This document shows, piece by piece, positions 10,455 to 21,040 of a stretch of DNA of 23,343 nucleotides. Position numbers and translations under genes: made by a program. The notes below the pieces were generated by a model. The model saw only the letters and a list, made by a program, of their open reading frames with translations. It was not told where the DNA came from and ran no database searches. How positions within the stretch are numbered: position 1 is the stretch's first letter; the number at the start of each line of letters is the position of its first letter. Source of the DNA: a virus; UHGV virus genome UHGV-0099467, one strand, 5' to 3'.

Positions 10455-10514
10455 ATCTTTATTTCCTTTCTAGCAAACCTAAGCTGCATATTCACATTAT
10501 AGGGAGTGTCCCAA

Positions 10515-10596
10515 TTCTCGCAAGTGGATTCGAACCACTACTTTATTATCGGCACTAATGCTAAAACTAACCTGCCCCTAGTTAACCAGTACGAGA
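10515..10596 (-). tRNA. tRNA-like element. The 3' half is canonical (anticodon arm, 4-nt variable loop, T-arm and acceptor stem), but the 5' D-region is aberrant. It may be a tRNA-Gly(GCC)-like gene or a pseudo-tRNA.
   Basis: On the minus strand a 7-bp acceptor stem forms between TCTCGTA and TGCGAGA, with a discriminator A. The T-arm is AGTGG-TTCGAAT-CCACT, carrying the canonical GGTTCGAATCC motif. A candidate anticodon arm is cATTA-GTGCCGA-TAATa, with U33 and anticodon GCC. The segment between the acceptor stem and the anticodon arm is 29 nt instead of about 19, so no standard D-arm forms. The total length is 82 nt. Confidence 0.35.
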
Positions 10597-10645
10597 ACAA
10601 AAATAAAGGAGACGACATTTTAACGACTTATCGAGGTCGAGTTAT

Positions 10646-10828
10646 TTACATCAACTCTAACAATTTAATCATGAGATAAGCTATCAACCATGAGTACCAA
10701 AGGTTAAATAAAATTTTGCTATATCCAATTTTATTTACATATTCTAAACTAAAAGATGCAAACAAACTCAACAACCAATTAGCAGAATTAAGGATTAATA
10801 CAACCCAAACTACAACATTTAAAATCAT
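10646..10828 (-). CDS. Small hydrophobic membrane protein (60 aa, 2-3 TM).
   Basis: Its ATG overlaps the stop of the preceding 35-aa ORF as ATGA. An AAAGG sits about 9 nt upstream. The sequence is highly hydrophobic (MILNVVVWVVLILNSANWLLSLFASF...). Confidence 0.4.
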   Translation of the reverse strand: MILNVVVWVVLILNSANWLLSLFASFSLEYVNKIGYSKILFNLWYSWLIAYLMIKLLELM

Positions 10829-10932
10829 TTCTTTTTACCTTTCAATATATCAGTAAACACTGCATAGAATCCATATACCATGAAGTAAGCAGTAATAGCA
10901 ATGATTGACACACTAACAATATCACTAATCAT
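10825..10932 (-). CDS. Tiny single-TM peptide (35 aa), translationally coupled to the RuvC-like gene.
   Basis: Its ATG overlaps the RuvC stop as ATGA. Sequence: MISDIVSVSIIAITAYFMVYGFYAVFTDILKGKKK, a hydrophobic core with a lysine C-terminus. It is absent from the ORF track because it is under 60 aa. Confidence 0.35.
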   Translation of the reverse strand: MISDIVSVSIIAITAYFMVYGFYAVFTDILKGKKK

Positions 10933-11386: not shown

Positions 11387-11536
11387 TTAAATAGGCAAGC
11401 TATACGAAGTAACCACAGCGAAAACTTTTCCAGTCTCTGGATAATCAACACTAATAGAAAAGTCTTGAATTTCTTCAAGATATTCTAATAACTGATTAAG
11501 TTCATACCATGAATTGACGTTATATTCATTTTTCAT
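11387..11536 (-). CDS. Small acidic ORF (49 aa), first gene of the leftward operon.
   Basis: Sequence MKNEYNVNSWYELNQLLEYLEEIQDF... An AGG/AAAGG RBS lies 6-9 nt upstream. Its TAA stop is 2 nt before the RuvC ATG. Confidence 0.35.
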   Translation of the reverse strand: MKNEYNVNSWYELNQLLEYLEEIQDFSISVDYPETGKVFAVVTSYSLPI

Positions 11537-11586
11537 ATATCTGCCTGCCTTTCTGTAAATCTAAGTTATCTCAACTCGATAAATTA

Positions 11587-11648
11587 ATTATAACATATAA
11601 AAATGTATGGTTTTTATCTCATTATACGACAAAAGCGAAGCGTGCTAA
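11587..11648 (-). promoter_or_regulatory. Candidate leftward (late/middle operon) promoters.
   Basis: On the minus strand an extended -10 TGtTATAAT spans 11595-11587. A second element has -35 TTAGCA (11648-11643), a 16-nt spacer and -10 TATAAT (11626-11621). Both lie upstream of the first leftward ORF. Confidence 0.4.
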
Positions 11649-11721
11649 GAAGGCGACTAGTTTCTAACTAAAGTGTTAGCTGCCTTAGCAGCGTGCAATA
11701 AAAATAATTTTGGGTTATCTC

Positions 11722-11755
11722 TTGACAAAACCATACTAATATGATATGCTATAAT
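11722..11755 (+). promoter_or_regulatory. Rightward promoter P1, driving transcription into the ORF-free origin-like region.
   Basis: TTGACA at 11722-11727, then a 17-nt spacer to TATGCT (11745-11750). Overlapping this is the extended -10 TGcTATAAT at 11747-11755. Confidence 0.45.
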
Positions 11756-11756
11756 A

Positions 11757-12099
11757 GAATTAAGAACTGAATACGAGTAATGCCTTATCGGATGGCTTGC
11801 TTGAGGAGTATATGAACAGCAGCTGAATAAGTATTGCTAAGTAATGAATTCGAACTTATTAGAAAGCCGTGCCTTTGTATAGGAAAAGCACAATATAACT
11901 AAAGGCAATGTCAAACAAGTAAAACGATTAGACAACCTGTGCGGCTAGTGTTTCTGATAAGGGGTTTAATAGTGAGGACTAATAGCCTGTAAGACCGAAG
12001 AGCAAAATACACCGAGGTTGCTTTTAATAACTCTTTGAGTTTTGGAAATTATCAAGTTAGAAGTAATAACAGGGGGCTAAGAAAATGCTAACTTTACTC
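11757..12099 (+). other. ORF-free, GC-richer transcribed region between the divergent promoters. Candidate replication origin or noncoding RNA.
   Basis: About 340 nt without a credible ORF, lying between P1 and the early promoter at 12100. GC content is visibly above the genome average. It contains a hairpin GTGCCTTT...AAAAGCAC and a TAATAG repeat. Confidence 0.3.
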
Positions 12100-12128
12100 T
12101 TGACAATGTTTTTAAAGTATGATATTAT
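12100..12128 (+). promoter_or_regulatory. Early promoter (sigma-A type).
   Basis: TTGACA at 12100-12105, a 17-nt spacer, then the extended -10 TGaTATTAT with the -10 hexamer at 12123-12128. Confidence 0.6.
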
Positions 12129-12154
12129 ATAAGTATGGAAAAAAGGAGCATTGT

Positions 12155-12346
12155 ATGTGGCTAAATGGTTTAGAGGGTTTATACAGTTACACAGAACACG
12201 GCACAGTTTGGAATCACATTCGAAATAGAGAACTACATCCAACTAAAAACAGAATCAAGATAAGAGGTAAGTGTTATTATGTTTCGGAAAAGTTACATAA
12301 GTCACCAAATAATAATATATCTTTATTTGACTTATTAGGTGTTTAG
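12155..12346 (+). CDS. Short NUMOD4-like protein, a probable N-terminal remnant of an HNH homing endonuclease.
   Basis: RBS AAGGAG lies 6 nt upstream of the ATG at 12155. The sequence MWLNGLEGLYSYTEHGTVWNHIRNRELHP...IKIRGKCYYVSEKL fits the NUMOD4 pattern W..I.G.EG.Y.VS..G.V.S...L.P...GY..V.L. No HNH catalytic domain follows. Confidence 0.4.
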   Translation: MWLNGLEGLYSYTEHGTVWNHIRNRELHPTKNRIKIRGKCYYVSEKLHKSPNNNISLFDLLGV

Positions 12347-18372: not shown

Positions 18373-18672
18373 ATGACATTAAAGGAACTTTGTTATAAAC
18401 TATTAATGCTTCAACCGCAAGAAGAATTTACGGCACAAATGGAGCTATCACTAGAGATTTTAAACGATGTTTGTGATAAAAAATACAGTTTAGATGATGT
18501 AGTAGATGGCAAAAATGAATATCAACGTGCAGCCTTATTCCTCAAATTAGACACTAAGATAGCTTTAAATGAGCTTGAATTATGGGGATCAACGTTAGAT
18601 AGCTTACAAAAAGCACGTAATCGAGCATTAGAAGCTGTACAAGCAATATCAACTATTGAAACACAACCTTAA
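18373..18672 (+). CDS. Hypothetical protein (99 aa).
   Basis: RBS GAGG. Confidence 0.55.
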   Translation: MTLKELCYKLLMLQPQEEFTAQMELSLEILNDVCDKKYSLDDVVDGKNEYQRAALFLKLDTKIALNELELWGSTLDSLQKARNRALEAVQAISTIETQP

Positions 18673-18694
18673 TACAATATAAATCACTTTGTAA

Positions 18695-18723
18695 TTGACA
18701 AGGTGGTTTTTTTATCGTATAAT
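18695..18723 (+). promoter_or_regulatory. Perfect consensus sigma-A promoter.
   Basis: TTGACA at 18695-18700, a 17-nt spacer, then TATAAT at 18718-18723. It is followed by a conserved leader box shared with the promoter at 20638. Confidence 0.65.
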
Positions 18724-18756
18724 AAGTATATAAAGTTAAAACAAAGGAGAAAATAA

Positions 18757-18930
18757 ATGAAACTACTACTTAAAACTATCTTATATCTCATCGGTGGTTG
18801 GTTCTTCACTGTCCCGACTATCATCATCGGAGCGATTCACTTAACAATTGCATTTACTAAATTTACATTCAAAATGATTGCATTGCCATTAAAATTAGTG
18901 TATAATATGATTGTGGAGGTAAGAAAATGA
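18757..18930 (+). CDS. Small membrane peptide (57 aa).
   Basis: RBS AAAGGAG. Sequence MKLLLKTILYLIGGWFFTVPTIIIGAIHLTIAF... Confidence 0.4.
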   Translation: MKLLLKTILYLIGGWFFTVPTIIIGAIHLTIAFTKFTFKMIALPLKLVYNMIVEVRK

Positions 18931-19088
18931 CAGTTGATGAATTAATGAAGGAATTGCAAAAATTAAGTGATCAAGGGCACGGAGATGTTCCTGTTCTATA
19001 TAAAGCTTATTACTATGAAGATGTTCGTTGGGTTGAATTATATGACGAAGAAGATGAAAAATACATATTGTTAGACACAAGCATTTAA
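18927..19088 (+). CDS. Small acidic protein (53 aa).
   Basis: ATGA overlap with the previous gene. RBS GTGGAGG. Confidence 0.4.
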   Translation: MTVDELMKELQKLSDQGHGDVPVLYKAYYYEDVRWVELYDEEDEKYILLDTSI

Positions 19089-19099
19089 GAGGAATATAA

Positions 19100-19195
19100 A
19101 TGAAAACAAGTAAATTACAAGCGGAAGCGGAAATGATTGCTAAAATGGCACGACAACGAGAAGAACAAATAAAATTATTGAAAGGATATAAATAA
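19100..19195 (+). CDS. Tiny basic peptide (31 aa).
   Basis: RBS GAGG. Sequence MKTSKLQAEAEMIAKMARQREEQIKLLKGYK. Confidence 0.3.
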   Translation: MKTSKLQAEAEMIAKMARQREEQIKLLKGYK

Positions 19196-19198
19196 AAT

Positions 19199-19399
19199 AT
19201 GGCAAAACAATATAGAAAATTAGACATGGCTGTGAGCCAAATACAGACGATTAGGGACAGTTTATTCTTACTTGATAAGCTGTATTCAGATATGAATGAA
19301 GAGACACTGGAAGCATTACACAGCAATCCTGACTATAAGTTAATAGAAGATTGGTCAAGTCATTGGATAGAGTTCAAAGGAGCAGAAGATGAAATATAA
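19199..19399 (+). CDS. Hypothetical protein (66 aa).
   Basis: ORF in the track. Confidence 0.5.
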   Translation: MAKQYRKLDMAVSQIQTIRDSLFLLDKLYSDMNEETLEALHSNPDYKLIEDWSSHWIEFKGAEDEI

Positions 19400-20904: not shown

Positions 20905-21002
20905 TTCCTGACGATTTAAATGAAATAGATAGAGATTCAGCTGAAGTGTTAGTTCATTCTTTAAAAGATAAGTATGAATCATATTGGGGTAACGTTAATT
21001 AA
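20901..21002 (+). CDS. Possible tiny ORF (33 aa) coupled by ATGA.
   Basis: ATG at 20901 overlaps the previous stop. No RBS is present. Confidence 0.2.
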   Translation: MIPDDLNEIDRDSAEVLVHSLKDKYESYWGNVN

Positions 21003-21040
21003 AAAAGAGCCTAGCAATTAAGCTAAGCTTTTTCTTTTAC
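21001..21040. terminator. Bidirectional rho-independent terminator between the convergent early and late operons.
   Basis: Stem AGCCTAGC (21008-21015), loop aattaa, then GCTAAGCT (21022-21029), with 7 of 8 positions paired. An A-run lies upstream (21001-21006) and a T-run downstream (21030-21038). Confidence 0.6.

What the first reader, a model, noticed from the sequence alone, without database searches (positions are those of the whole stretch)
11537..12154. Divergent promoter hub with a ~340-nt ORF-free, GC-richer transcribed segment (candidate origin or ncRNA)
Leftward promoters at 11587-11648 and rightward promoters at 11722-11755 and 12100-12128 flank a segment with no credible ORF (11757-12099). 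This segment is clearly more GC-rich than the AT-rich surroundings and contains hairpins and short repeats. Because a promoter fires into it, it would be transcribed as a long leader or ncRNA. In small lactococcal-type virulent phages the replication origin sits in this position between the early and late promoters and is itself transcribed.
Basis: partly seen in the sequence, partly recalled or inferred. Interest (0 to 1): 0.6.

Follow-up and report, generated by a model that had tools for sequence, protein, structure and literature searches.

The report
c2-type transcribed phage replication origin
The gene-free stretch between the early and late genes of this small Lactococcus phage matches the replication origin of phage c2, where an untranslated RNA made from the first early promoter is needed to start DNA copying; it is a new sequence variant of a known device, not a new kind of element.

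Summary
Window 11537-12154 is a 618-bp intergenic hub. It has leftward promoter-like sites, two strong rightward promoters (P1 11722-11755, P2 12100-12128) and 343 nt between them with no credible ORF. The "GC-richer" claim is true only against the promoter flanks: 36.7% versus a genome mean of 36.3%.

The layout matches, part for part, the 611-bp intergenic region of Lactococcus phage c2 that is annotated as its origin. That region reads late promoter, l1, Holliday-junction resolvase on one side, and PE1, untranslated PE1-T, PE2, e1 on the other. The flanking proteins are homologous to c2's.

The first ~90 nt of the untranslated segment (11764-11853) are homologous to c2-type PE1-T. They contain a hairpin whose stem is kept by many compensatory changes across four sequence types, including the 949-group phages. 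The remaining ~250 nt are a new sequence type. Five metagenomic relatives share it, and it is swapped as a cassette between P1 and P2.

There are no DnaA boxes, no iterons and no Rfam match.

A separate ~110-bp element (11612-11720) lies upstream of P1 and is conserved in L. garvieae/petauri phages of three lineages. It is probably the late-promoter control region, but this remains unexplained.

Verdict: a new member of a known kind.

The parts
11387..11536 (-). First late gene (l1 homologue, 49 aa, DUF7395); left border of the hub
   Evidence: ORF list. Pfam PF24127, E 2e-10. 48% identical to c2 l1.
11587..11595 (-). Extended -10 TGTTATAAT with no -35. It sits where c2's late promoter LP1 sits.
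   Evidence: Read. The c2 record annotates only a -10 for LP1, 31 nt before l1. A TGnTATAAT-like motif is kept in the relatives.
11605..11614 (.). Left arm of a 10-bp perfect inverted repeat (GTATGGTTTT / AAAACCATAC at 11727-11736). The repeat brackets element A and lies in the spacers of both divergent promoters.
   Evidence: the repeat finder I2. Locus L259 carries a compensated version, GTATTCGTTTT / AAAACGAATAC.
11612..11720 (.). Element A: a conserved block upstream of P1. It holds a leftward promoter, invariant AGCGTGCTAAGAAGGCGA (11639-11656) and TTGGGT (11710-11715).
   Evidence: 81-88% identical in GE1, PLG-II, PLgW-1, PLgY and ACM616_1, at unannotated intergenic sites. 12-sequence alignment A7. 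85-97% identity in relatives whose l2 gene is only 66-88% identical.
11621..11648 (-). Leftward promoter-like site TTAGCA-16-TATAAT inside element A
   Evidence: Scan, 10/12. TATAAT is invariant in 12 of 12 sequences. The -35 spacing is not kept in PLgW-1.
11679..11692 (.). Small hairpin or palindrome GCTGC-CTTA-GCAGC inside element A
   Evidence: Three stem variants (GCTGC/GCAGC, GTTCC/GGAAC, GCTCC/GGAGC). Two positions change on both sides.
11722..11755 (+). P1, counterpart of c2 early promoter PE1 (TTGACA-17-TATGCT, overlapping TGCTATAAT)
   Evidence: Conserved in relatives.
11757..12099 (+). Untranslated segment, counterpart of c2 PE1-T; candidate replication primer RNA and its template
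   Evidence: No ORF. 93-96.5% identical in five metagenomic relatives, which is more than the flanking genes. Exchanged as a cassette between P1 and P2.
11764..11853 (+). Conserved 5' domain, in order: GAAUACG, hairpin, GUAUAUGAA (11808-11816), CUGAAUAAG (11823-11831), AGUAAUGAAUU (11840-11850)
   Evidence: Alignments A5 and A6. The covariance model gives a single hit in the window at 101 bits; since the window was a training row that score is by construction, and the informative point is that nothing else in the window scores above 13 bits. It also gives an independent hit in LG75P1, E 0.006-0.03.
11771..11811 (+). Hairpin of the 5' domain. Outer stem 11771-11774 / 11808-11811; inner stem 11775-11784 / 11794-11802; loop 11785-11793 ending in GAUG.
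   Evidence: RNAalifold predicts it unaided, and 6 of 9 pairs show double changes. 96.9% of cells are paired against 27-52% when the partner is slid. Covariation is 0.663 against 0.09-0.14, with 0 of 500 shuffles as high.
11972..11983 (+). GTGAGGACTAAT island shared colinearly with c2-type PE1-T
   Evidence: The 3' part versus c2 reaches only z = 2.3, so this is weak evidence.
12072..12076 (+). G5 run near the 3' end of the segment; candidate site of a stable RNA-DNA hybrid
   Evidence: It is the only + strand G5 run in the 23-kb window. A G run (G4-G9) sits at the equivalent place in c2, p6/4, bIL67, LG75P1, GE1, ACM616_1 and the 949 group.
12100..12128 (+). P2, counterpart of c2 early promoter PE2; followed by an RBS at 12144-12149 and the e1 start at 12155
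   Evidence: Scan, 11/12 with TG..

Best explanation
The region is the replication-origin and transcription-switch hub of a c2-like virulent siphophage of Lactococcus garvieae/petauri.

**Proposed mechanism.** Host RNA polymerase starts at P1 (11722-11755) and transcribes about 340 nt of untranslated sequence, the counterpart of c2's PE1-T. The RNA folds; its 5' domain (11764-11853) carries a conserved hairpin flanked by invariant single-stranded motifs. The RNA acts in cis at its own template. Most likely it stays hybridised near the G run (12072-12076) and is processed into a primer for host DNA polymerase, so that theta replication starts without any phage-encoded initiator. P2 (12100-12128), just downstream, drives the early genes. 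Leftward promoters in 11587-11648 drive l1, the resolvase gene and the late genes.

**Shown here:**
- the promoters and the absence of ORFs;
- the part-for-part correspondence with the c2 origin region;
- homology of the 5' domain to c2-type PE1-T;
- covariation in the hairpin, with G-U pairs that fit the sense strand;
- conservation of the segment above that of the neighbouring genes.

**Taken from published c2 and Ceduovirus work:** PE1-T is made, is needed for origin function, and the region replicates plasmids without phage proteins.

**Inferred:** origin activity in this phage, the R-loop or primer step, and the role of the G run.
For: - **Layout.** It is identical to the c2 record's annotated origin region.
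- **Flanking proteins.** l1 and the AAA_25 early protein are homologous to c2 l1 and e5. The Pfam context is c2-like: DUF3882/RuvC, ERF, Phage_SSB and the L. lactis phage capsid family.
- **Sequence homology.** blastn gives 109 colinear nt at 70.6%, E 4e-10. Local alignment against c2, L266, PMBT69 and the 949 type gives z = 11-12 against dinucleotide shuffles.
- **Hairpin.** It is supported by covariation. 16 of its 130 cells are G-U pairs, which would be A-C mismatches on the other strand.
- **Conservation.** The segment is 93-96.5% identical in relatives whose l2 gene is 66-88% identical.
- **Cassette exchange.** It is swapped exactly between P1 and P2. The literature likewise says Ceduovirus origin types differ mainly in the sequence between PE1 and PE2 (PMC7150918).
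- **No initiator sites.** No DnaA-box excess and no iterons.
- **Skew.** The cumulative GC-skew minimum lies at 11-12 kb.
Against: - No experiment exists for this phage.
- Homology to c2 covers only the first ~90-105 nt. The other ~250 nt are a distinct sequence, with z = 2.3 against c2 and none against the 949 types.
- The closest sequenced relative, ACM616_1, has an unrelated cassette that the covariance model does not detect.
- Folding energy is no better than shuffles.
- No terminator was found before P2, so the RNA might simply be a long leader.
- The GC-skew switch coincides with the switch of gene orientation, so it is not independent evidence.
- c2 and the 949 types have a C run that could pair with the G run. 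The window type has none.
- I could not read the two primary papers, Rakonjac 2003 and Schiemann 2004.
Confidence: 0.75

Rival explanations
1. The segment is only a long 5' leader. P1 and P2 are tandem early promoters, the 340 nt have at most a role in mRNA stability or translation control, and the real origin lies elsewhere.
For: No intrinsic terminator was found between P1 and P2. Folding energy is no better than shuffles. The early genes follow directly.
Against: The 5' domain is homologous to a segment whose transcript is reported essential for c2 origin function. Conservation is above that of the flanking genes, and the segment is exchanged as a cassette. The same module lies in a gene-free region of the 949-group phages. 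P2 alone suffices to express the early genes.
Confidence: 0.1
2. The RNA is a trans-acting non-coding RNA, for example one that binds or titrates a host or defence factor. Replication priming would then be secondary or absent.
For: The 5' domain has invariant single-stranded motifs (CUGAAUAAG, AGUAAUGA, loop GAUG) next to a covarying stem, a pattern typical of a binding platform. The module also occurs in 115-130-kb 949-group phages. No Rfam family matches.
Against: The published summary says the c2-, bIL67- and 923-type regions support plasmid replication without phage proteins, and that chimeric origins fail, which fits a cis-acting RNA. No evidence for any target was found here.
Confidence: 0.1
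3. The origin core is element A (11612-11720), read as single-stranded hairpin DNA or by a host protein. P1 transcription would only activate it by opening the DNA behind the polymerase.
For: Element A is more conserved than its neighbouring genes across three phage lineages that share a host species. It contains a compensated hairpin and is bracketed by an inverted repeat.
Against: It is absent from Ceduovirus, whose origins work without it, and from LG75P1. It is present in Uwajimaviruses, which lack a PE1-T cassette. It contains an invariant leftward TATAAT and lies where an activator site for the late promoter would be. The stem changes fit a palindromic operator equally well.
Confidence: 0.05

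Closest known systems
Origin of replication of Lactococcus phage c2 and other Ceduovirus (PE1 / PE1-T / PE2 cassette; c2, bIL67 and 923 types)
   Same: - Same position, between l1-resolvase (late) and e1 (early).
- Same size: 618 bp against 611 bp.
- Two early promoters about 360-380 nt apart, with no ORF and no RBS between them.
- A late promoter with only a -10.
- Homologous 5' ~90 nt, including a hairpin at the same columns.
- A G run near the 3' end.
- The cassette is exchanged between PE1 and PE2.
   Different: - The host is L. garvieae/petauri, and the phage lies outside Ceduovirus: only ~45-52% protein identity.
- The 3' ~250 nt match no known type.
- There is no C run to pair with the G run.
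- The sequence between the late promoter and PE1 is replaced by element A, which Ceduovirus lacks.
- Function is untested.
ColE1-type plasmid origins (RNA II preprimer)
   Same: From textbook knowledge: host RNA polymerase makes an untranslated, folded RNA of a few hundred nt. This RNA hybridises to its template through a G-rich stretch and is cut to prime host DNA polymerase, with no plasmid-encoded initiator. The window has the promoter, the length, a structured 5' domain and a G run.
   Different: No sequence or Rfam relationship. No convincing antisense RNA I-like unit was seen: there is no antisense promoter in 11757-12099, only one antisense terminator-like hairpin. Dependence on RNase H or Pol I is unknown.
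Unannotated non-coding region of 949-group phages (Audreyjarvisvirus) and phage PMBT69
   Same: It shares the 5' domain, with the hairpin at the same alignment columns and the motifs GUAUAUGAA, CUGAAUAAG and AGUAAUGAGUU. It also has a downstream G run, lies in a divergent gene-free region and follows a strong promoter.
   Different: There the module starts ~250-270 nt after the promoter, behind 2-4 tandem hairpin repeats. The bodies are not alignable with the window. Nothing is known about its function, and I found no description of it in the papers I could search.
Initiator-dependent phage and plasmid origins (DnaA boxes or iterons plus an AT-rich unwinding element)
   Same: Intergenic position and AT-rich flanks.
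   Different: No DnaA-box excess: 8 sites found against 7.6 expected in the window, and none inside the hub proper. No iterons.

Membership tests
Ceduovirus-type transcribed origin (PE1 / PE1-T / PE2) | Lies in the non-coding region between the divergently transcribed early and late gene blocks, next to l1 and the resolvase gene | tested here: met
   ORF map, c2 record, l1 and l2 homology
Ceduovirus-type transcribed origin (PE1 / PE1-T / PE2) | Non-coding sequence of 300-400 nt flanked by the first two early promoters | tested here: met
   P1 at 11722-11755 and P2 at 12100-12128, with -35 hexamers 378 nt apart against 360 in c2
Ceduovirus-type transcribed origin (PE1 / PE1-T / PE2) | No ORF of 100 bp or more and no ribosome-binding site after PE1 (criterion in PMC7150918) | tested here: met
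   Longest sense ORF is 22 aa. One antisense ORF of 33 aa (102 bp including the stop) has no RBS.
Ceduovirus-type transcribed origin (PE1 / PE1-T / PE2) | Sequence homology of the transcribed segment to a known origin type | tested here: inconclusive
   The 5' ~90-109 nt are homologous to the c2 type (E 4e-10, z = 12). The remaining ~250 nt are not (z = 2.3). The published types are themselves mutually non-homologous, so this feature is not strictly required.
Ceduovirus-type transcribed origin (PE1 / PE1-T / PE2) | An abundant untranslated transcript from PE1 is made and is essential in cis | not testable with these tools
   Needs RNA mapping and promoter mutants. Indirect support comes from G-U pairs and one-sided changes that fit the sense strand.
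Ceduovirus-type transcribed origin (PE1 / PE1-T / PE2) | Supports plasmid replication in lactococci without phage proteins | not testable with these tools
   Reported for the c2, bIL67 and 923 types. No similar sequence occurs on plasmids in PLSDB.
ColE1-type RNA-primed origin | G-rich RNA stretch that forms a persistent hybrid at the RNA-DNA switch | tested here: inconclusive
   A G5 run is present, unique on the + strand, and conserved in position across types. Hybrid formation was not tested.
ColE1-type RNA-primed origin | Antisense RNA that controls preprimer folding | tested here: not met
   No antisense promoter-like site in 11757-12099; only an antisense terminator-like hairpin at 11893-11867
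DnaA- or iteron-dependent origin | Cluster of DnaA boxes or tandem initiator-binding repeats | tested here: not met
   8 one-mismatch DnaA boxes in the window against 7.6 expected, none within 11445-12155. No tandem or multi-copy repeats.
Any Rfam RNA family | Covariance-model match | tested here: not met
   No hit at gathering score on the window. Only chance-level hits at E <= 10 on 11400-12300. None at E <= 1 on nine related loci, including a 949-type contig and PMBT69.

The most novel reading that the evidence does not exclude
The first ~90 nt of the segment would be one instance of an undescribed structured RNA module: GAAUAYG, a covarying hairpin with a GAUG loop, GUAUAUGAA, CUGAAUAAG, then AGUAAUGA.

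The module is shared by origin transcripts that were regarded as unrelated, and by phages of at least three lineages:
- Ceduovirus of the c2 type, and weakly the bIL67/LG75P1 type;
- these L. garvieae/petauri phages;
- the 115-130-kb 949 group.

It would be the common, host-factor-recognised core of transcription-primed replication in lactococcal phages, with the variable body conferring type specificity. Separately, element A would be a host-species-specific control or origin-accessory site shared across genera.
Probability: 0.4. Interest if true: 0.55.

Novelty: new member of a known kind. Interest (0 to 1): 0.35.

Why it matters
The result extends the transcription-dependent, initiator-free origin of phage c2 beyond dairy L. 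lactis phages to phages of the fish and human pathogens L. garvieae and L. petauri.

It adds a new cassette type whose 5' end is c2-like. It also shows that origin transcripts described as having no significant similarity between types share a small structured domain, which is found in the 949-group phages too. That domain is a concrete target for learning how the RNA is recognised.

In practice, cloned origins of this kind are reported, in work recalled from memory, to give type-specific phage resistance, and they can serve as minimal replicons. The coordinates given here are therefore directly usable for L. garvieae tools or for designing phage therapy.

Tried and rejected
- **Rfam.** At gathering and permissive thresholds, on the window and on nine related loci: nothing.
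- **tRNA/tmRNA scan.** Nothing.
- **Single-sequence folding.** No signal on either strand.
- **Nucleotide searches with the transcribed segment.** In the phage collection they returned only a short ACM616_1 promoter match and a 44-nt PMBT69 match. The plasmid collection gave nothing relevant.
- **Three-way MAFFT of window, ACM616_1 and GE1 segments.** No real alignment; these are different cassette types.
- **Scans of genome contigs and metagenome contigs with a 15-mer from element A.** This was a mistake. I therefore could not test whether element A occurs in host chromosomes.
- **The search for related loci with the resolvase in viral contigs.** Nothing found. The protein search plus contig look-ups worked instead.
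- **Covariance-model hit inside a gene of L261** (E 0.34). Rejected as chance after reading the sequence.
- **Direct repeat AGCGTGCTAAGAA / AGGGGGCTAAGAA and the 17-nt inverted repeat between P1 and P2**. Not conserved in relatives, so dismissed.
- **A coding reading of the segment.** Rejected.
- **DnaA-box or iteron origin.** Rejected.
- **Primary papers.** PMC194990 and PMC529073 are not held.

Full report
**What the window is.** The 23,343-base window is essentially a whole small phage genome.

- Its nearest sequenced relative is Lactococcus phage ACM616_1 (host L. petauri), at 86% identity over 56% of the window.
- Genes run leftward from 11536 and rightward from 12155.
- The proteins are c2-like. 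l1 is a 49-aa DUF7395 protein, 48% identical to c2 l1. It is followed by a RuvC-like resolvase (DUF3882), a Lactococcus-phage capsid protein, an AAA_25 early protein 45% identical to c2 e5, ERF and a Lactococcus-phage SSB.

- Rightward: TTGACA-17-TATGCT at 11722-11750, with TGCTATAAT ending at 11755, and TTGACA-17-TATTAT at 12100-12128.
- Leftward: TTAGCA-16-TATAAT at 11648..11621, and TGTTATAAT at 11595..11587.
- P1 and P2 share CTCTTGACAA and TATGATAT exactly 378 nt apart.
- Between them the longest sense ORF is 22 aa, and no ORF has a ribosome-binding site.
- The segment is 36.7% GC. That is above the 29-33% of the promoter flanks but equal to the window mean of 36.3%, so the GC contrast is local only.
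- Folding energy is no better than shuffles.
- There are no iterons and no excess of DnaA boxes.
- The cumulative GC-skew minimum falls here, but so does the switch of gene orientation.

**What it corresponds to.** The c2 GenBank record annotates a 611-bp intergenic region as containing the origin of replication. Its parts are late promoter LP1 (only a -10) before l1 and the resolvase gene, then early promoter EP1, about 335 nt, early promoter EP2 and e1. The window has the same parts in the same order and at nearly the same distances.

A paper I could read (PMC7150918) summarises the experimental work:

- PE1 produces a non-coding transcript, PE1-T, thought to start replication in a transcription-mediated way.
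- Three types (c2, bIL67, 923) show no significant similarity to one another.
- Chimeric origins do not work.
- All three types replicate a plasmid in L. lactis without phage proteins.

The two primary papers (Rakonjac 2003, Schiemann 2004) are not held.

**Homology of the transcribed segment.** Database searches with the segment find almost nothing. Direct comparison does better.

- Window versus c2 gives 109 colinear nt at 70.6% identity, E 4e-10. The match starts in the P1 -10 region and covers the first ~85 nt of the transcript.
- Local alignment scores against c2, a c2 variant (L266), PMBT69 and a 949-type contig are 11-12 standard deviations above dinucleotide shuffles.
- Without the 5' domain, the score against c2 falls to z = 2.3 and against the others to nothing.

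The window therefore has a c2-like 5' domain joined to a body of its own.

**Relatives.** Searching with the resolvase protein and fetching the encoding contigs gave five metagenomic phages with the same cassette, 93-96.5% identical to the window across the transcribed segment; whole intergenic regions are 87-94% identical. It also gave one GE1-type, several c2-type and other types.

- The cassette is more conserved than the adjacent genes. The l2 gene is 66-88% identical and AAA_25 is 83-89% identical.
- ACM616_1 and locus L257 share the left 254 nt of the hub at 92.5%. They then carry unrelated segments, and similarity resumes at P2.
- So the segment moves as a cassette between the two promoters. 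This fits the Ceduovirus literature, where the sequence between PE1 and PE2 is the main difference between origin types.
- LG75P1, another L. petauri phage, carries a bIL67-like cassette.

**A conserved structured 5' domain.** Aligning the first ~100 nt from four sequence types shows invariant motifs separated by a hairpin whose sequence differs in every type. The four types are the window type, the c2 type, the 949 group and PMBT69. The motifs are GAAUAYG, GUAUAUGAA, CUGAAUAAG and AGUAAUGA.

- RNAalifold predicts that hairpin unaided, and 6 of its 9 pairs show changes on both sides.
- For the 13-pair structure, 96.9% of cells are standard pairs, against 27-52% when the partner is slid by 1-3 columns. 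The covariation score is 0.663 against 0.09-0.14, and no shuffle out of 500 reaches it.
- 16 of the 130 cells are G-U pairs, which favours the sense strand, that is, an RNA made from P1.
- A covariance model built from this domain hits the window once, at 11764-11853. Because the window was a training row, the 101-bit score is by construction; what matters is that nothing else in the window scores above 13 bits.
- Outside its training set, the model finds LG75P1 at the expected place (E 0.006-0.03). bIL67 appears there only at chance level. ACM616_1, GE1, L259 and p6/4 give no hit at the origin position, only chance-level hits elsewhere.
- No Rfam family covers any of these sequences.

**The 949-group connection.** All 949-group phages, and PMBT69, carry a c2-like module in a ~900-bp unannotated, divergent, gene-free region at the end of their records. 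It sits behind a strong promoter and 2-4 tandem hairpin repeats. For the c2 and 949 types, RNAalifold also pairs a C run with the downstream G run. The window type has no C run. I found no description of this relationship in the papers I could search, but I cannot exclude that it is in papers that are not held.

**The G run.** GGGGG at 12072-12076 is the only G5 run on the + strand of the whole window. A G run sits at the equivalent place, a few tens of nt before PE2, in most other cassette types examined. By analogy with ColE1 RNA II (textbook knowledge), this is the most likely place for a persistent RNA-DNA hybrid and for the RNA-to-DNA switch. This step is inference.

**Element A.** These include Uwajimaviruses, which have no PE1-T cassette. 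The element always lies between the leftward resolvase cluster and the rightward early genes, and it is never annotated. It is absent from Ceduovirus and from LG75P1.

- It contains an invariant leftward TATAAT with TTAGCA 16 nt upstream, an invariant 18-mer, a small hairpin or palindrome (11679-11692) with three compensated stem variants, and TTGGGT.
- A perfect 10-bp inverted repeat brackets it and falls in the spacers of both divergent promoters. L259 has a compensated version of that repeat.
- My best reading is that element A is the control region of the late (or middle) promoter, with a palindromic operator. A role as an origin accessory site is not excluded.

**Verdict.** This is a c2-type, transcription-dependent origin hub in a c2-like phage of L. 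garvieae/petauri. Its cassette is new in sequence but of a known kind. The mechanism is carried over from c2 and is untested here.

Two points go beyond what I could find described. One is the conserved structured 5' domain, shared across cassette types and with the 949-group phages. The other is element A, which remains unexplained.

Noticed in passing
window 11612-11720: Element A is a ~110-bp block, 81-97% identical in L. garvieae/petauri phages of three lineages, including Uwajimaviruses that lack the PE1-T cassette. It holds an invariant leftward TATAAT, an invariant 18-mer and a compensated small hairpin or palindrome. Its function is unknown.
   Followed up: partly
window 11605-11614 and 11727-11736: A perfect 10-bp inverted repeat (GTATGGTTTT / AAAACCATAC) lies in the spacers of the two divergent promoters. 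Locus L259 has a different but still complementary pair (GTATTCGTTTT / AAAACGAATAC).
   Followed up: partly
window 18671-18759: An internal early promoter cassette (TTGACA-17-TATAAT plus RBS) is 92% identical to Uwajimavirus PLgW-1 and PLgY. The flanking genes do not match at the DNA level, which suggests that regulatory cassettes are shared or exchanged among L. garvieae phages.
   Followed up: partly
window 10523-10539 (minus strand), within the gene-poor stretch 10455-10928: A perfect tRNA T-arm-like GTGG-TTCGAAT-CCAC has flanks (CTCGTA...TGCGAG) that could form an acceptor stem. ARAGORN and Rfam call nothing. PLG-II has a tRNA-Trp at the syntenic position, so this may be a decayed tRNA.
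   Followed up: partly
L274-L279 (949-group phages, last ~900 bp of each record); L273 2150-2810 (PMBT69); L271 1580-2220: An unannotated non-coding region has a strong promoter, then 2-4 tandem copies of a hairpin repeat (AGGATAACGGTGGTCTCCGTTGTAAAATAA), then a c2 PE1-T-like module ending in a G run. This could be the unrecognised origin of these large phages.
   Followed up: partly
L001 (ACM616_1) 18975-19320 versus L257 1741-2090: Two phages share the left part of the hub at 92.5% but carry unrelated untranslated cassettes between P1 and P2. This is natural cassette swapping with break points at the promoters.
   Followed up: yes
window ~20905-21036: This is the convergent end of the early and late gene blocks, and the cumulative GC-skew maximum falls here. 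By analogy with c2, it is where the cohesive ends would lie. I did not examine it.
   Followed up: no
L249 (LG75P1) intergenic region, about 2680-2800 of the locus (reverse strand): An extra strong rightward promoter (TTGACA-17-TGCTATAAT) sits close to the late-gene start, followed by CCTTAGCG / CCTAAGCG motifs reminiscent of element A but not alignable with it.
   Followed up: no
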